64,000 bases of DNA from Candidatus Marinacidobacterales bacterium (lineage in GTDB: Bacteria; Acidobacteriota; Vicinamibacteria; Marinacidobacterales; DATDRI01). The DNA is taken from assembly GCA_965219415.1 (NCBI GenBank), contig CBDCNP010000001.1, forward strand, positions 1-64,000, written 5' to 3'. The position numbers and the translations under genes were made by a program. Numbering within the stretch: position 1 is the first letter of the stretch; each line of letters begins with the position of its first letter. The notes beneath the pieces were generated by a model. It did no database searches and was not told the origin of the DNA. It saw only the letters and a list, made by a program, of their open reading frames with translations. This document shows positions 1,905-63,768 of this stretch, piece after piece.

Positions 1905-2222
1905 CGTCCTGTGCCAAAACTCGGCCCTTTTGAAAGACCATGGCTGTAATTTAATGCACCGTAAAGTCTTAGCGTCATTTTACCAACACTTAATGGCGGA
2001 AGCACCCATGAGGTCTGTGTGAGCAGCAGGGCTGCCCGATCGAACAACGGCTGCCTGACCAACAGTAGGATTTGCACATGGTACGTCATGATGGATCCGA
2101 AGATAACACCCTCGGGCCAGACGATTGTAAAGTCCACAGCCCCTGGCAACCGTCCCAAAACACAGACGCTAAGCTGCTGATTTATCGGCTATTTCAAGAG
2201 GGCCGAGTTTTGGCACAGGACG
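1905..2222 (-). mobile_element. Composite non-autonomous element (A end + IS1-MITE piece + ~50 bp foreign DNA + transposase 5' stub + A end); inverted copy at 63452-63768
   Basis: Near-identical reverse-complement copy at the other end of the window. Confidence 0.9.
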
Positions 2223-49097: not shown

Positions 49098-49895
49098 CTA
49101 CAAACGAGCTCCACAGTCCTTGCAGAACTTGACATCGGTATCGTGGCCTTCGCTGGAGCAGATGGGACAAGCCTGCGTGCTCACCGCAAGCCTTGCCGCC
49201 GCGTGCATCTCGACGCTCACGATCCCGGTCGGTACGGCGATGATTCCGTAGCCGAGGATCATGATCACAGTGGCCAAGAACTTACCCAAAACCGTTTGCG
49301 GGGCAATGTCTCCGTAACCCACCGTGGTCATGGTCACGATAGCCCAGTACATCGCCTGCGGAATGCTGGTGAAACCGCGCTCTTCTCCCTCGAGCAGATA
49401 GATAAGCGCCCCGACGATGAGAGCAATGGCGAGGATCGCACCGATGAAAATGACGATCTTGCGCGCGCTCGCGTGAAGCGCAGCGCTGAGCTGAGCCCCT
49501 TCTCCGACGAACCTCACCAGCTTCAGCACCCGAAAGACCCGGAGGAGCCGAAGAGCACGGATAACTAAAAGCGACTGAGCCCCGCCGAAGATCAGGCTCA
49601 AGTAGGTTGGCAGAATGGCTAGGAGATCGACCACACCGAAGAAGCTGGTGGCGTATGCAAGAGGTCTTCCCACCGAATACAGCCGTAAGATGTACTCGAT
49701 GGTGAAGAGAATCGTCACCAGCCATTCGAATCCGCGAAGCACGGTCCCGTAGTCCTCGCGGACGGCGGTCACGCTTTCCAGCATCACCGCGACAATACTC
49801 GCCAGAATGAGAACGAGCAGTGCCAGGTCGAAGACTTTCCCCGCAGGCGTATCCGCCTCGAAAATGATCTCGTGGAGCTTGGCTCGATGCCGCGT
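49098..49895 (-). CDS. Voltage-gated potassium channel / ion transporter; native start lost
   Basis: S4 RALRLLRVFRVLK; selectivity filter TMTTVGYGD. Confidence 0.92.
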   Translation of the reverse strand, partial: TRHRAKLHEIIFEADTPAGKVFDLALLVLILASIVAVMLESVTAVREDYGTVLRGFEWLVTILFTIEYILRLYSVGRPLAYATSFFGVVDLLAILPTYLSLIFGGAQSLLVIRALRLLRVFRVLKLVRFVGEGAQLSAALHASARKIVIFIGAILAIALIVGALIYLLEGEERGFTSIPQAMYWAIVTMTTVGYGDIAPQTVLGKFLATVIMILGYGIIAVPTGIVSVEMHAAARLAVSTQACPICSSEGHDTDVKFCKDCGARL

Positions 49896-50097
49896 CTTGA
49901 ACATCCTCCCAGCACAGGCCATGGATCCTCGTGAGCGAGAAGCGCGCCGAAGGCGGTCGGATCAGGAACGACCGCAACACCACAATACGGCCGTCGCAGC
50001 CGACCGCGAGGCCGACCGCGCATGCGCTGTCCCGTCGGTGATTGGCCGTCTCGAAGTCGATCGCCACGAAGGTGCTCATTGCATCCGGCTCTGTCAT
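49896..50097 (-). pseudogene. DnaQ-like 3'-5' exonuclease N-terminal fragment
   Basis: FVAIDFETAN..SACAVG..IRPP..IHG. Confidence 0.8.
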
Positions 50098-50210
50098 ACT
50101 CCATCATAAGGCAGATCCGGCGACGGAAAGGTCAAAGCGTTAGCCGCGGGAGACGTTGATCCATGGACAGGTGGGGAAAGCCGGATGCCTTCGCTCGGCC
50201 CCTGCGGAAC

Positions 50211-50297
50211 GTCGTCGGCCATCGCAGGGCCTACGGGTACGGCATGCTGCTCGTACGACCGCCGGCGGGGACGGCCTGTCGCACCTCACCATGTTGA
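50211..50297 (+). pseudogene. cas6e: Cas6e C-terminal fragment
   Basis: GHRRAYGYGMLLVRP glycine loop; stop overlaps the cas1 start. Confidence 0.7.
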
Positions 50298-51196
50298 AAG
50301 GGCGTCTCGGCCTTGACACGGCCCGGATCCCCCACACGGATCGGGCCGGGCTTCTCTGGCTCTCGCGCGGCGCGCTGACCGCGCGGGACGGAACCCTCAC
50401 CTTCGAGCGCGGCCCGTACGGAACGGAGAACGACCCCCTGGAACCGGGTCACTACGCCATACCGTTTCAGGGCGTCTCCATGATCTTGCTCGGTCCTGGC
50501 TCGACCGTGAGCCATGACGCGCTACGGCTTCTGGCCCGGCACGGTACCGCGCTCGCCGCTGTCGGCGAGGACGGAGTGCGCTGTTATACTGCTCCACCGT
50601 TGATCGCCGACCGGTCGGGCCTCGCGCGACGCCAGGCGCGCGTCTGGGCTGACGCCAAAACTCGGCTCCAAATCGCGCGACGCATGTACGCATGGCGCTT
50701 GGGTGACGTTCTTCCCCGCAGCGACCTCGCGGTGATGCGCGGCATTGAGGGCGCCAGGATGAAGGAGACCTATCGTCTCATGGCTACGACGATCGGAATC
50801 GAATGGCGGGGACGGCGCTACGATCGGTCACGGCCGATGGCGAGCGATCTGCCGAACCAAGCGCTGAACCACGCGTCGAGTGCGGTTGAAGCCGCTGCCG
50901 CCATTGCCGTCTCCGCGACGGCGACCGTGCCGCAACTCGGTTTCATCCATGAAGATGCAGGCCAGTCCTTTGTGCTCGACATCGCTGATCTGTTCCGCGA
51001 CTCGGTGACCATTCCCACTGCGTTCCGGGCTGCGAAGAAGGTCTTGGCGGCGCCCCGTGCGAACATCGAGCGCGTAACGCGGCGCGAGACCGGGTACGTC
51101 CTCAGCCGGGAGCAAACGATCCCGAGAATGATCGACCGGATTAAGGATTTGTTTGGAGATCCGAAGCCAAATAAGGAGTCGCGGTCATGCCCATGA
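50291..51196 (+). CDS. cas1: Type I-E Cas1
   Basis: LLGPGSTVSHDA, RGIEGAR, LGFIH, FVLDIADL. Confidence 0.95.
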   Translation: MLKGRLGLDTARIPHTDRAGLLWLSRGALTARDGTLTFERGPYGTENDPLEPGHYAIPFQGVSMILLGPGSTVSHDALRLLARHGTALAAVGEDGVRCYTAPPLIADRSGLARRQARVWADAKTRLQIARRMYAWRLGDVLPRSDLAVMRGIEGARMKETYRLMATTIGIEWRGRRYDRSRPMASDLPNQALNHASSAVEAAAAIAVSATATVPQLGFIHEDAGQSFVLDIADLFRDSVTIPTAFRAAKKVLAAPRANIERVTRRETGYVLSREQTIPRMIDRIKDLFGDPKPNKESRSCP

Positions 51197-51480
51197 CGGT
51201 CGTCGTCACGCGGGACGTCGAACCCAGATATCGTGGCTTCCTCGCCTCAGCGCTGCTCGAGGTCGCCCCGGGCGTCTACGTGTCGCCCAACCTCTCAGCC
51301 GGGGTGCGCGAGCGCATCTGGTCAGTGATCGAAGACTGGTTCGGTGCGCTTGGGAACGGCGCCATCGCCATAATCTGGCGGGACAGCACTGCCGGAGGCG
51401 GCCTCGCACTCCGCCATCTGGGTGACCCTCCGAAGGAGATCCGTGAAGCCGACGGCGTGCTGCTCGTCAAGAGGTTGTGA
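51187..51480 (+). CDS. cas2: Type I-E Cas2
   Basis: RYRGFLASALLEVAPGVYVSP..GVRERIW. Confidence 0.95.
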   Translation: MPMTVVVTRDVEPRYRGFLASALLEVAPGVYVSPNLSAGVRERIWSVIEDWFGALGNGAIAIIWRDSTAGGGLALRHLGDPPKEIREADGVLLVKRL

Positions 51481-51607
51481 GGTGCGGAAGTCTTGTCTTG
51501 CTAGCTCTTTGACAACTGAATAGAATTGTTTCTTGACAGGCTTCCCTTCTGTTTCGAAGAGGTAATTTTTACTCAGAGGGTTCCCCCGCATGCGCGGGGA
51601 TAGACCG
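51481..51607 (+). CRISPR. AT-rich leader plus a single type I-E repeat (51579-51607)
   Basis: GGTTCCCCCGCATGCGCGGGGATAGACCG, 29 bp with CCCCGC/GCGGGG stem, downstream of cas2. Confidence 0.88.
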
Positions 51608-51719
51608 ATTACAGCCAAAATAGCGCTCACGACCTTCGCCGCGCGCTAAATGGAGCGTAAGTGCTTTTTTTTTGCAAAGAGATACGTACACATCACCAAC
51701 GGCAAACAGCGCAAGCACC
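51608..51719 (+). mobile_element. 3' part of the 166-bp MITE fused to the CRISPR repeat
   Basis: Matches 61078-61188. Confidence 0.88.
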
Positions 51720-51857
51720 GCCAGATCGCATTCGCGAGGACGCACTCCGCATCCACGCGCCGTTCCGCTTGCGTCGACGCGGCGTCGAGACCAAGCTCGT
51801 TCTGGGCAACCCCACGAAATCCGTTGACCGCACCCTCCTGCGCAATATCGCCAATGC

Positions 51858-52785
51858 CGTCCTGTGCCAAAACTCGGCCCTTTTGAAATAGCCCATAAAT
51901 CAGCAACTTAGAGTCTGTGTTTGTGGCCGTGCCCAGGGCCGGGCACGAACGAACGACGAAATCATGCAGGCATGGTGCCCGCAGACCGGAGATCAATCAA
52001 GTTCGGTGCGCGCGGATGAATAAATAGAAGGCACAACCCAATGGGCGGTGAGAAACGTGCGCCACGGCGTCCGCTCTCCTCGTTCCGGCGCGGGCTCGAT
52101 GCCTTGTTCCCGCAGAATACTTGCGATGGTGCTCCTAGCTACGGCATGGCCGAGATTCGAGAGGGCACGCCGCGAATCCTAATCTATCCCCACCGCGGAT
52201 TTTCCTTCGCTAGACGTAGGACGAGCTCCGTACTCTCGACCATCACCCAGGGTCGTCCAAGCTGTTTCCGCCGTGTGCTGTAGTCCCACTTCCGCGCAAT
52301 GAGCCTTCGGTGCCAAGCCAGAAGGGTTTCCGGTGTGACGATACCGGCAACTTCTGCCAAGAGTTTCCGGCCAAGCGCCTTACCCTTTACCGCGAGCCGA
52401 CGTCGCTCGTCGTCCGTGAGGCGAAGCTTCCTCCCGCGAAGCCGAGCTTTGAGGACTCTGTTCTCCTCAAGCAAGTAGACGATAGCGGCTTGTTGGTCAC
52501 GCTGGACCCAACCAGCGATGGTGACCACCAACAATGTCAAGGGCTGGATCGGCGTGTTCATGACCGAGGATTCTAGCTTCCATTGGCGAATCAAGCCTAG
52601 ACACCTCTAATCCGAAACGTCCCGGCGCGCCGGTCTTGAGTTCGTTTATATTTTTGGACACGACGCCATCCGTTCCGTCTAACTGGCGCGACCGAACTCC
52701 TATGCGGCGGCACGGTGGTAATAACCCGTGCTCCGCAAAAAGTCGATCCAGGGTCTTGAGTACGTTTGTATTTTTAGACACGACG
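51858..52785. mobile_element. A-D hybrid (51858-52035), truncated B-family transposase (minus, 52036-52561) and B ends (to 52665 and 52785)
   Basis: TPETLLAWHRRL, ENPRWG; end motifs. Confidence 0.85.
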
Positions 52786-53021: not shown

Positions 53022-53546
53022 TCAACTGTCTTCCGCCCAATCGAAGTGGACGTTCAGTGCCCGAAGCATGGCGAACGTGTTGTCGCGCCGCACTCCGAAC
53101 TGATCGCATACATCGGGCAGCTTGATCTCCTTCCTAGACTCCGGCGCACTTTGCTCGTTCGTCACGACGGTGGCGCCGTGAACCTGTGCGTAGGCGACGA
53201 GCCAGCCGTCCGCACCCGTCGCGAACTTTGCCTTCGCATAGTCGAAATATTTCGGGTGACGTTGAACCCACATCATGACGTCCGTATAGGCGCGCACCAC
53301 CACGTCGGTGTCCACTTGGACGAAGAACCCTTCCGGGACTTCATCCCTCACCCACCGAACGAGATCCTCCGTCCTGCGACCCACGAGTAGTTCGCTACGA
53401 ACTCTGTCGACGCTAAAGACTCGGCCCTCCCGGTGGTGATGAAGCACGCTCTTCCAGAAGCCGGGGCAGATGTCGAATGAGTAATACAGGTTCTTCGCCG
53501 TGATGAAGACGTCCGAATCCACAAGGTAGGTCCGATCCACCATCAT
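53022..53546 (-). CDS. DUF4411 family (PIN-like) protein
   Basis: YLVDSDVFI..YYSFDICPGFW..ADGWLVAYA..VVTNE..KLPDVC. Confidence 0.88.
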   Translation of the reverse strand: MMVDRTYLVDSDVFITAKNLYYSFDICPGFWKSVLHHHREGRVFSVDRVRSELLVGRRTEDLVRWVRDEVPEGFFVQVDTDVVVRAYTDVMMWVQRHPKYFDYAKAKFATGADGWLVAYAQVHGATVVTNEQSAPESRKEIKLPDVCDQFGVRRDNTFAMLRALNVHFDWAEDS

Positions 53547-54691
53547 GGGATATCCACCCCCAGCCGCTTGGCGTACTTCTGGAAGCTTCCTCCACGCAGC
53601 CCTGTCAGGTCATAGGCTTCCTTGAATCCGATACGGCCCTCCATCGCTGCGCGCAGCACCTGGATCGCAAATAGCTCGCCGACACGCGTGTTCTGGTTGT
53701 TATAGAAATCTCCCCCGCTCGGTGTCGTGCCACCCTTGCGTTCCCGATTGACGTAGCGCTCGTAGAAATCGAAGAAGGTGCTGCGGTCAACGAGATTCAG
53801 GTCGAGAGCTCGGCGGGCAGCGACTACGGGGCTCACCTTGAACGTCCGGGCGAGTGCCTCGAAGGGACTCGCCCTCCGTCTGACTTCCCCCCAGCGCGCT
53901 CTGAGCTCCCGTGCTGGCGCGAGGAGCTCCGCCGCCGCTCGGTTGCACCAGTCCTCCACGTCCGTACCGCCGGGGAGTAGGACTTCGAAGCCGGAAAGCC
54001 CCTCTGTGCCGAGCCAGATGTGCGCCAACTCGTGAGCGAGCGTGAACATCTGCGCCGACTTCGAATCCGCACCGTTCACGAAGATCAGCGGCGCGTAGGG
54101 ATCGGTGAGCGCAAAGCCGCGGAACTCTTTCACGCTCAGCGGGCGATGGGTATTGTTCCCCACCACACCGTTGATCACCGCCATCACGCCGAGCTGCTCG
54201 ATCGCGCGACGCAACTCGCTCACGGCATCCTGCCAAGTACGGACTCCCGCGGCCCATCCACCATCGAGGCCGAGCGCCCGTCGCATCTCGCGACCCACAG
54301 CGCCCGGCTCATCGCCAAGACGGGCGCTTGCCACGAAGGCCAATGGTTCCACCTCGTTCTCGACGAGGGAGTCCCGCAGCCACACCTGTCGGCGTTGCAT
54401 CGTGTACAGCGTGTCGAGCAGGTCGGGGCTCGGCTTTGCTTCCGCAGCGCCCCCCACGGTGCGATAGTCAGGAACCGGGAGGCGTTCGTCGGGGGGCTCG
54501 GGGAGGAACAGGTAGCCGAGCGGCGTATGGGTGAGTTTGGCCAGCTTCTCCAGCTGCTTCAGCGTCGGCTGTTTCTCACGTCGGACCCAGGCCGGGAGCT
54601 GTGGCATGCGCTCCGCAACGTGCGCCACATCGTAGCCGGCGCGTTCGCAAGCCCAGCGAAGCATCTCAGGGTGCACTGGGACGCGGGTCAT
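53543..54691 (-). CDS. XRE-HTH + ImmA/IrrE metallopeptidase
   Basis: N-terminal HTH (PTLKQLEKLA); FTLAHELAHIWLG. Confidence 0.92.
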   Translation of the reverse strand: MTRVPVHPEMLRWACERAGYDVAHVAERMPQLPAWVRREKQPTLKQLEKLAKLTHTPLGYLFLPEPPDERLPVPDYRTVGGAAEAKPSPDLLDTLYTMQRRQVWLRDSLVENEVEPLAFVASARLGDEPGAVGREMRRALGLDGGWAAGVRTWQDAVSELRRAIEQLGVMAVINGVVGNNTHRPLSVKEFRGFALTDPYAPLIFVNGADSKSAQMFTLAHELAHIWLGTEGLSGFEVLLPGGTDVEDWCNRAAAELLAPARELRARWGEVRRRASPFEALARTFKVSPVVAARRALDLNLVDRSTFFDFYERYVNRERKGGTTPSGGDFYNNQNTRVGELFAIQVLRAAMEGRIGFKEAYDLTGLRGGSFQKYAKRLGVDIP

Positions 54692-63451: not shown

Positions 63452-63768
63452 CGTCCTGTGCCAAAACTCGGCCCTCTTGAAATAGCCGATAAATCAGCAG
63501 CTTAGCGTCTGTGTTTTGCGACGGTGCCAAGGGCTGTGGGCTTTACAATCGTCTGGCCCGAGGGTGTTATCTTCGGATCCATCATGACGTACCATGTGCA
63601 AATCCTACTGTTGGTCAGGCAGCCGTTGTTCGATCGGGCAGCCCTGCTGCTCACACAGACCTCATGGGTGCTTCCGCCATTAAGTGTTGGTAAAATGACG
63701 CTAAGACTTTACGGTGCATTAAATTACAGCCATGGTCTTTCAAAAGGGCCGAGTTTTGGCACAGGACG
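63452..63768 (+). mobile_element. Second copy of the composite element at 1905-2222
   Basis: Near-identical sequence, opposite orientation. Confidence 0.9.

What the first reader, a model, noticed from the sequence alone, without database searches (positions are those of the whole stretch)
50291..51719. Type I-E leader-repeat is joined base-precisely to the interior of the resident MITE
Seen: intact cas1-cas2, leader and one full 29-bp repeat; the very next base starts 112 bp of internal MITE sequence running to its IR. No IS tip lies at this joint, unlike most joints in the window. Known: Cas1-Cas2 joins DNA exactly at repeat borders. Inference: either a MITE-derived first spacer recombined with a MITE copy and deleted the array (escape from self-targeting, consistent with the loss of interference genes), or Cas1-Cas2 performed a half-site integration of long transposon DNA.
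Basis: partly seen in the sequence, partly recalled or inferred. Interest (0 to 1): 0.7.

Follow-up and report, generated by a model that had tools for sequence, protein, structure and literature searches.

The report
Orphan CRISPR remnant joined to a MITE
A decayed type I-E CRISPR locus keeps only cas1, cas2, its leader and one repeat, and one base after that repeat the DNA runs into the middle of a small transposon; this is most likely an ordinary deletion scar, but a CRISPR-driven origin cannot be excluded.

Summary
The anatomy is real. There is an intact cas1e (50291-51196) and cas2e (51187-51480), a leader, and one repeat. From 51608 the sequence is the right-hand 112 nt of a 166-nt MITE that has about 170-190 copies in this genome.

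1. In this repeat family the conserved repeat is 28 nt (51579-51606). The 29th base, G at 51607, is the variable base that is copied from the spacer donor. It matches only 3 of 147 other MITE copies, so the joint is precise to within 1 nt, not to the base.
2. This is not the only joint here without an IS. The cas operon is cut inside cas6e (remnant about 50166-50295) and joined to a truncated dnaQ-like gene, which is in turn joined to a K-channel gene.
3. None of about 2,100 spacers examined derives from the MITE. No relative carries this allele.

The genome encodes Ku. The MITE side of the joint lies in an AT-rich spot that is also a breakpoint in another genome.

My estimates:
- Homology-free deletion or end joining: about 0.45.
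- Recombination of a MITE-derived first spacer with a MITE copy: about 0.30.
- A break or joining made by Cas1-Cas2: about 0.15.

The data cannot separate these.

The parts
49890..50097 (-). truncated dnaQ-like (DEDD exonuclease) gene. Only the first ~69 codons match. It is joined downstream to a K-channel gene (49098-49922, minus strand).
   Evidence: NCBIfam PRK06195, residues 9-69 only, E 5.5e-14; K-channel NF040645. Translation turns to junk after about residue 68, and there is no paralogue in the genome.
50166..50295 (+). 3' remnant of cas6e (last ~40 codons). Its stop overlaps the cas1 start. The left end of the remnant is approximate.
   Evidence: tblastn of the G039 Cas6e, residues 226-255, against 50178-50267: 67% identity, E 1e-8. 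The DNA lines up with four relatives.
50291..51196 (+). cas1e, intact
   Evidence: TIGR03638 at 277.4 bits (cut-off 215.6). Pfam PF01867. Full-length alignment to E. coli Cas1 (5dlj), E 7.9e-39, with the IEG / GFIH / DIAD motifs kept.
51187..51480 (+). cas2e, intact
   Evidence: TIGR01873 at 97.7 bits (cut-off 33.15). PF09707, E 5e-26.
51481..51578 (+). leader. It carries the conserved box shared with relatives but has about 34 extra nt between that box and the repeat.
   Evidence: Alignment with the leaders of four relatives (sequences).
51579..51606 (+). the single 28-nt type I-E repeat (hairpin CCCCGC/GCGGGG)
   Evidence: The same 28-nt unit with a 61-nt period is seen in G039, G034 and 113 loci of other genomes.
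51607..51607 (+). orphan G: position 29 of the repeat, which is spacer position 1. It is variable in this family and is not the consensus MITE base.
   Evidence: PMC3338789.
51608..51719 (+). right 112 nt of the 166-nt MITE, up to its right terminal inverted repeat. The left 56 nt are missing.
51720..51857 (+). internal fragment of a ~20-copy element ('F') into which the MITE had inserted. F continues without interruption from the MITE's end.
   Evidence: 21 matches. In intact copies the F sequence runs on leftwards where the MITE sits here.
51858..52038 (+). terminal sequences of another high-copy IS ('IS-B'), the start of a ~1.2-kb nest of repeated elements
   Evidence: copy number up to about 450.

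Best explanation
This is the stump of a type I-E CRISPR-Cas locus in a genome that is being broken up by mobile elements and deletions. The interference genes were removed by a deletion that ends inside cas6e.

A second deletion needed no homology. It joined the DNA one base past the first repeat to the interior of a MITE that was already sitting in another repeated element downstream. That removed the array, if one was there, and the MITE's left arm. The joining was most likely done by end joining (the genome has Ku).

On this reading the G at 51607 is either the first base of the lost first spacer or a filler base. The closeness to the repeat border is chance, or at most helped by the repeat's structure.

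Shown: the anatomy, the missing genes, the neighbouring IS-free joints, the presence of Ku, and the recurrent breakpoint in the MITE. Inferred: the order of events and the joining pathway.
For: - Everything from 49361 to 51606 is single-copy, and everything from 51608 to about 52800 is nested repeats.
- No type I-E interference gene was found in the 8.05-Mb genome. Of 13 ORFs of the G039 locus used as tblastn queries, only cas1 and cas2 hit. A 3' cas6e remnant shows that the operon was cut within a gene, with no IS at the cut.
- A dnaQ-like stump and a K-channel gene make further IS-free joints within 1.7 kb.
- The MITE's right end is continuous with element F, so the MITE was in F before the deletion. 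This excludes insertion of a 112-nt mini-element.
- There is no microhomology at the joint. The G is not part of the 28-nt repeat and fits 3 of 147 other MITE copies.
- Ku is present at 166 bits.
- The MITE breakpoint lies in its AT-rich stretch. In G034 an unrelated IS left end is fused to the same MITE at the same 5-nt stretch (4 copies). In this genome two other truncated copies begin 3 nt before and 1 nt after that site.
- The MITE copy belongs to one subfamily along its whole length.
Against: - A random break lands at offset 0 or +1 after a 28-nt repeat only about 2 times in 61.
- In G034 a fragment of the same MITE family abuts the 5' border of the first repeat of an orphan I-E array, to within 1 nt.
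- In this genome an IS end abuts the 5' border of another I-E relic, to within 1 nt.
- Taken together these hint that repeat borders are preferred breakpoints. A purely random model does not predict that. The count is small and was made after the fact.
- cas1 and cas2 are still intact, so an active integrase may have been present when the joint formed.
Confidence: 0.45

Rival explanations
1. The newest spacer had been copied from a MITE. Its 33 nt began with G followed by the sequence now at 51608. Recombination between that spacer and a same-sense MITE copy downstream on the replicon then deleted the rest of the array and everything up to that copy. The result is leader, repeat and MITE right part. 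This would also remove a self-targeting spacer.
For: - Homology ends at the spacer's edge, so a joint at the repeat border needs no coincidence.
- The partner is a repeated element with five further same-sense copies downstream on this 284-kb contig.
- Self-derived spacers exist. The leader-proximal spacer of this genome's I-C array is a perfect 39-nt match to a unique chromosomal site. In another genome, 2 spacers of an array with about 119 repeats of this I-E repeat family match their own chromosome perfectly, one of them a two-copy element.
- G is the second commonest first base of spacers in this family (22%), whereas A, the consensus MITE base at that position, is the rarest (2%). One of the three G-variant MITE copies is of the same subfamily as this one.
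- Loss of interference genes and of spacers are known escapes from self-targeting (PMC6990116, passages).
Against: - The donor must be one of the 3 of 147 other copies that have G before ATTACAG. The common variant that offers an AAG motif (38 copies) would give a joint one base shorter than the one seen.
- No MITE- or IS-derived spacer was found among 228 + 32 + 1,848 spacers.
- There is no mosaic of subfamilies in the 112 nt.
- The PAM of this family could not be determined.
- The coincidence of the MITE breakpoint with a breakpoint in G034 is not predicted by this model.
- No intermediate allele was found.
Confidence: 0.3
2. Cas1-Cas2 itself made the joint, or made the break that led to it. 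One route is a direct attack at the repeat-spacer border by the 3' end of a long broken DNA that ended inside the MITE (half-site integration). The other is an aborted spacer integration that left a nick at that border, which became a break and was then joined to a break at the MITE's AT-rich spot.
For: - Cas1 and Cas2 are intact. Cas1 keeps the motifs that align with those of E. coli Cas1 (that these are the catalytic residues is recalled, not tested).
- The joint lies within 1 nt of the position where I-E integrases cut the spacer side of the repeat (PMC3338789, passages). Half-site products and their reversal are documented in vitro (PMC8390005 and PMC4574026, abstracts only).
- Two other I-E relics have foreign DNA within 1 nt of a repeat's 5' border.
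- Ku could add the orphan base.
Against: - No example in vivo is known to me. Two searches of the paper library listed none in the titles and abstracts shown.
- Direct joining again needs the rare G variant at the DNA end.
- The leader has about 34 extra nt between its conserved box and the repeat, which may impair integration at this site.
- G034, which has the similar joint, has no Cas1e detectable with this query.
Confidence: 0.15
3. The joint is an assembly error: a mis-join of two repeat-containing regions.
For: The region to the right is high-copy DNA. In 3 of the 4 runs laid, the contigs stop at 51605/51606.
Against: - One contig of run X9 (644 nt, no mismatch, 1 gap) runs from 50992 to 51636, which is 30 nt into the MITE. 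That run may be the source of the assembly.
- Contigs stopping at the end of a 28-nt repeat that many arrays in the same runs share is what word-based assembly should do.
- The genome is in 3 contigs despite hundreds of repeats.
Confidence: 0.03

Closest known systems
Type I-E CRISPR-Cas of Escherichia coli (adaptation module Cas1e-Cas2e, leader, repeat)
   Same: Cas1e and Cas2e family members, a leader followed by a palindromic repeat of 28+1 nt, a 61-nt unit in relatives, and a 29th base that varies with the spacer.
   Different: There is only one repeat and no spacer. There is no cas3, cas8e, cse2, cas7 or cas5, and only a stump of cas6e. The leader is about 34 nt longer than in relatives. 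The 29th base in this family is mostly C, not G.
Escape from self-targeting spacers by loss of the spacer or of cas genes (reviewed in PMC6990116)
   Same: The interference genes and the array are both gone. The DNA after the repeat is chromosomal mobile-element sequence.
   Different: No self-targeting spacer is present or shown to have existed. The known escapes delete spacers by repeat-repeat recombination, whereas here the proposed partner is the target itself.
Mobile elements that integrate into CRISPR repeats (phage AP1.1 in Streptococcus pyogenes type II-A arrays, bioRxiv 10.1101/2020.10.09.333658)
   Same: A mobile element abuts a CRISPR repeat and the array content is lost.
   Different: There the phage uses an att site inside the repeat and its own integrase. 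Here the repeat is whole, the element is a MITE, and the joint is with the MITE's interior, so it is not a transposition or integration product.
Bacterial non-homologous end joining (Ku and LigD) and other illegitimate deletions
   Same: A joint without homology, with one base assignable to neither side, in a genome that has Ku, next to other joints of the same kind.
   Different: The pathway is inferred. LigD was not looked for, and the breaks themselves cannot be seen.

Membership tests
[quoted passage not shown] | Cas1e and Cas2e | tested here: met
   TIGR03638 at 277.4 bits (cut-off 215.6) and TIGR01873 at 97.7 bits (cut-off 33.15).
[quoted passage not shown] | Cascade genes and cas3 (cas8e, cse2, cas7, cas5, cas6e, cas3) | tested here: not met
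   tblastn with the six G039 proteins found nothing in the genome at E 1e-5. Only a 3' cas6e remnant is present.
[quoted passage not shown] | array of repeats and spacers with a 61-nt unit | tested here: not met
   There is one repeat only at this locus. The nearest other matches are on another contig.
[quoted passage not shown] | palindromic 28+1-nt repeat after a leader | tested here: met
   No Rfam family matched, which says nothing either way.
MITE (non-autonomous derivative of a DDE-transposase IS) | short, non-coding, many copies, terminal inverted repeats shared with a full-length IS | tested here: met
   166 nt; 169 copies of at least 90 nt of the right part. The same ~24-nt ends occur in inverted pairs about 1.2 kb apart around an ORF with weak IS1/rve hits, which are below the Pfam cut-offs.
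MITE (non-autonomous derivative of a DDE-transposase IS) | target-site duplications | tested here: not met
   Among 148 full copies there were no exact flanking duplications of 3, 4 or 6-13 nt, and 1 of 5 nt.
Product of spacer-protospacer recombination | the first 33 nt after the repeat are a faithful copy of the donor, including base 1 | tested here: inconclusive
   Bases 2-33 match the MITE. Base 1 (G) matches 3 of 147 other copies.
Product of spacer-protospacer recombination | donor site flanked by the system's PAM | not testable with these tools
   The PAM is unknown. The only protospacers found are self-matches, with flanks AC[C] and GG[T].
Cas1-Cas2 half-site integration product | joint exactly between repeat base 28 and the incoming DNA | tested here: inconclusive
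   This holds only if the incoming MITE carried the rare G.

The most novel reading that the evidence does not exclude
The type I-E integrase acted on the chromosome itself. Cas1-Cas2 cut the repeat-spacer border, or transferred a strand to it, and this joined the first repeat to broken MITE DNA and deleted the array. CRISPR adaptation enzymes would then be a source of genome rearrangement. The same process would have left similar scars at repeat borders in another relic in this genome and in another genome.
Probability: 0.13. Interest if true: 0.8.

Novelty: new member of a known kind. Interest (0 to 1): 0.35.

Why it matters
As it stands, this is one more eroded CRISPR locus in a genome crowded with mobile elements, and that is expected. 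It would matter if repeat borders turn out to be preferred breakpoints. That would mean either that spacers copied from a cell's own transposons recombine with their sources and reshape replicons, or that the adaptation integrase damages its own locus. Both ideas can be tested. The means are deep long-read data from the natural population, or the two intact genes of this locus expressed with a leader-repeat target.

Tried and rejected
- **Related alleles.** No close relative of the locus was found among 60 relatives (best 71% DNA identity) or among the 55 genomes held for the order, searched with the repeat pattern. A leader-plus-repeat pattern had 0 hits in metagenome contigs. The best Cas1 in metagenome contigs is 80% identical. 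The joint pattern had no exact hit in 400 other genomes of the phylum, and one hit with 1 mismatch that looks like an ordinary spacer.
- **MITE-derived spacers.** None were found.
- **PAM.** Spacers searched against all fetched loci gave only one in-array duplicate and two short chance matches. Self-matches in G061 gave discordant flanks. Phage collections were not searched.
- **Mini-transposon idea.** The idea was that a 112-nt element inserted at the border. It is rejected because the MITE's right end is continuous with element F, and because only this copy among the 235 matches starts at that base.
- **Parent-IS idea.** The recurrent '4-69' MITE form looked like a parent-IS end. It is rejected: that form is a chimeric MITE carrying another IS's tip.
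- **IS200/IS605-type end.** The hairpin next to the MITE in G034 looked like such an end, perhaps mimicked by the CRISPR repeat. It is rejected: the hairpin lies inside the left end of a 1.7-kb IS, and the fusion has 5-nt microhomology.
- **Mosaic test.** The test on the 112 nt was negative.
- **Breakpoints in other arrays.** A survey of IS breakpoints in arrays of other genomes was not informative. Of 40 long gaps, nearly all were degenerate repeats and only 2 had inverted ends.
- **Rfam.** No match.
- **Earlier findings of this scan.** Nothing was shown.
- **A contig of X10.** It joins 51606 to 51857, putting the repeat end next to another IS's tip. The shorter side is only 24 nt, which the tool warns is often another organism or a repeat.
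- **Gaps in what I could see.** Supplementary files of papers were not consulted. Swarts et al. Table S1 may bear on how often base 29 deviates.

Full report
**Where the window lies.** The window is the first 64 kb of a 284-kb contig (C2). The genome is 8.05 Mb in 3 contigs with 59% G+C.

**What is at the coordinates.**
- ORF 50291-51196 is a type I-E Cas1: TIGR03638 at 277.4 bits against a cut-off of 215.6, and PF01867.
- ORF 51187-51480 is Cas2e: TIGR01873 at 97.7 bits against 33.15, and PF09707.
- Cas1 aligns over residues 13-288 with E. coli Cas1 structures (E 7.9e-39). It keeps the IEG, GFIH and DIAD motifs that align with those of the E. coli enzyme. That these are the catalytic residues is my recollection, not a test.
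- After cas2 come 98 nt of leader and one repeat with the usual I-E hairpin.
- From 51608 to 51719 the sequence is the right-hand 112 nt of a 166-nt MITE. A search with these 112 nt gave 198 matches in the genome. Of these, 169 start at query base 1 or 2 and 180 end at base 112.
- In most of the copies printed, the match continues leftwards into a conserved 56-nt left arm that begins with the terminal inverted repeat. That arm is absent here.
- With a full MITE as query (235 matches), only this copy starts at that base.

**How precise the joint is.**
- In the closest arrays the unit is 61 nt, made of 28 invariant bases plus 33 variable ones.
- The base after ...GACC is C in 17, G in 8 and T in 1 of 26 spacers in G039.
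- Over 1,895 spacers of this repeat family from 113 loci of other genomes, it is C 1198, G 417, T 246 and A 34.
- In E. coli this 29th base is copied from the donor's PAM (Swarts et al. 2012, PMC3338789, passages read).
- The repeat proper is therefore 51579-51606, and the G at 51607 is formally the first base of a spacer.
- Of the 147 other MITE copies caught by a motif search, the four bases before ATTA... are TTAA in 87. In 38 the MITE reads TTAA|GTTA. Only 3 read TTAG|ATTA.
- The G is thus neither conserved repeat nor consensus MITE. The joint is exact only if the MITE partner was one of the rare G variants. Otherwise one orphan base lies between the two.
- There is no microhomology.
- A random break in an array would fall at one of these two offsets about 2 times in 61.

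**The surroundings.**
- DNA from 49361 to 51606 is single-copy. From 51608 to about 52800 everything is nested repeated elements.
- The 142 nt after the MITE are an internal piece of a ~20-copy element, and they continue that element exactly from the MITE's end. The MITE had therefore inserted there before the joint was made, and the 112 nt cannot be a separately transposed mini-element.
- Upstream of cas1 the last ~40 codons of cas6e survive, with the usual stop/start overlap.
- The rest of the operon is gone. Of 13 ORFs of the G039 locus used as tblastn queries, only cas1 and cas2 found anything in this genome.
- The cas6e stump is joined, with no IS end, to the upstream side of a dnaQ-like gene. 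Only the first ~69 codons of that gene remain, and it runs into a K-channel gene.
- The joint under study is therefore one of at least three IS-free, homology-free joints within 1.7 kb.
- The leader has about 34 nt more between its conserved box and the repeat than the leaders of the four relatives aligned.
- The genome encodes Ku (166 bits).

**Tests of the MITE-spacer model.**
- No close allele exists in the collections. The best DNA relative among 60 is 71% identical. No array with this repeat was found in the 55 genomes of the order apart from a variant in G034. There was no hit to the leader-repeat pattern in metagenome contigs, and the best Cas1 there is 80% identical. The joint motif gave no exact hit in 400 other genomes of the phylum.
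- None of the 228 spacers of this genome's other arrays matches the MITE or any IS. Nor does any of the 32 spacers of G039 and G034, or any of the 1,848 unique spacers of the same repeat family.
- The 112 nt carry the markers of one MITE subfamily along their whole length. Their rare changes lie at positions 55-94. This is not significant, and it is no sign of a spacer-derived patch.
- On the other side, self-derived spacers are real here. The leader-proximal spacer of the I-C array is a perfect 39-nt copy of a unique chromosomal site. In one other genome, 2 spacers of an array with about 119 repeats match their own chromosome perfectly. The flanks of those two sites disagree, so the PAM remains unknown.
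- Among spacer first bases in this family, G is fairly common and A is rare. That would favour the G-variant copies as donors.

**Other scars.**
- The genome has four more relics of I-E repeats. In one, an IS end lies within 1 nt of the first repeat's 5' border. In another, a whole MITE ends 4 nt after the repeat. In two, IS ends lie inside a repeat or 23 nt into a spacer.
- In G034 a six-repeat orphan I-E array has a fragment of the same MITE family against the 5' border of its first repeat, with one irregular base. No Cas1e was found there with this query. That fragment has a 26-nt internal deletion seen nowhere else in that genome. The other end of the array is fused within a spacer to a I-C array.
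- Counted after the fact, three or four of about eleven boundaries lie within 1 nt of a repeat border, against about one expected. This is suggestive only.
- The MITE side of the joint also recurs. In G034 the left end of an unrelated 1.7-kb IS is fused to the same MITE at a 5-nt microhomology that spans the very site of this joint, in four copies. Two other truncated copies in this genome begin 3 nt before and 1 nt after it. The site is the most A+T-rich part of the element.

**Reads.**
- Four runs were laid as Logan contigs.
- In one run, a 644-nt contig without mismatches, but with one gap, covers 50992-51636, which is 30 nt beyond the joint.
- In the other three, contigs from the leader stop at 51605/51606. 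That is what word-based assembly should do where many arrays in the sample share the 28-nt repeat.
- The joint is therefore supported, but thinly, and perhaps by the source data of the assembly itself.

**Weighing.**
- A homology-free deletion needs a 1-in-30 coincidence at the CRISPR side. It fits everything else: neighbouring joints of the same kind, Ku, the orphan base and a fragile MITE site.
- The MITE-spacer model explains the border for free and explains why the partner is a repeated element. It needs an unobserved spacer from a 2% variant, and it leaves the MITE-site coincidence to chance.
- Integrase-made breaks or joins explain border scars in general, but they have no direct support.
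- I put these three at 0.45, 0.30 and 0.15, with 0.03 for mis-assembly and the rest unassigned.

**Literature.**
- Self-targeting spacers, their frequency and the escapes from them: PMC6990116 (passages).
- Base 29 of the repeat being PAM-derived: PMC3338789 (passages).
- Half-site integration and disintegration in vitro: PMC8390005 and PMC4574026 (abstracts in the listing).
- Phage integration into CRISPR repeats: bioRxiv 10.1101/2020.10.09.333658 (abstract and passages).
- A paper on recombination between phages and CRISPR loci through spacers is cited in several papers of the listing. I did not read it, and its content is recalled.
- I found no report of a CRISPR array deleted by recombination of a spacer with a chromosomal transposon, or by Cas1-Cas2, in the listings. 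Those are listings of titles and abstracts only.

Noticed in passing
L001:3034-3072 (G000 contig C3:4746509-4746547): The leader-proximal spacer of the large I-C array is a perfect 39-nt match to a unique site at C3:3613644-3613682. The upstream flank of that site is GGA. It was the only self-match among 228 spacers.
   Followed up: partly
window 1941-2006 (-) and 63667-63732 (+): A chimeric mini-element made of the first 66 nt of the MITE fused to the tip of another IS. It is present in about 22 copies with different flanks, so it seems to move on its own.
   Followed up: partly
L049:9370-9800 (G034:C1:404370-404800): An orphan six-repeat I-E array. Its left end abuts a MITE fragment, and its right end is fused, 37 nt after the last repeat, directly to a I-C array that has no leader.
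   Followed up: partly
L013 (G000 C3:5547535-5547650, minus strand): An I-E relic of two repeats plus 8 nt of a third. An IS end lies within 1 nt of the first repeat's 5' border, and another IS cuts the third repeat.
   Followed up: partly
window 51481-51578: The leader has about 34 nt more than the leaders of four relatives between the conserved box and the repeat. The 5-nt string AGAGG occurs at 51565 and again, 17 nt later, at the repeat junction (51576).
   Followed up: partly
window 49890-50097 (-): A dnaQ-like exonuclease stump lies back to back with the cas6e stump. DnaQ-type exonucleases are reported to trim prespacers in Cas4-less systems (title and abstract of PMC10470216). Whether this gene once belonged to the locus is unknown.
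   Followed up: no
window 53022-54691 (-): A gene pair: DUF4411 (E 8.8e-45) followed by a protein with a Peptidase_M78/IrrE-type domain. The pair is single-copy and sits just beyond the repeat nest.
   Followed up: no
whole genome: The MITE is absent from the 2.07-Mb contig C1 and from the first 0.75 Mb of C3. There are 159 copies in the rest of C3 and 10 in C2. Genome contamination is given as 8.45%.
   Followed up: no
148 full MITE copies: No target-site duplication of 3, 4 or 6-13 nt flanks any copy, and one copy has a 5-nt duplication. This is unusual for an element with 24-nt inverted ends and a DDE-type parent.
   Followed up: partly
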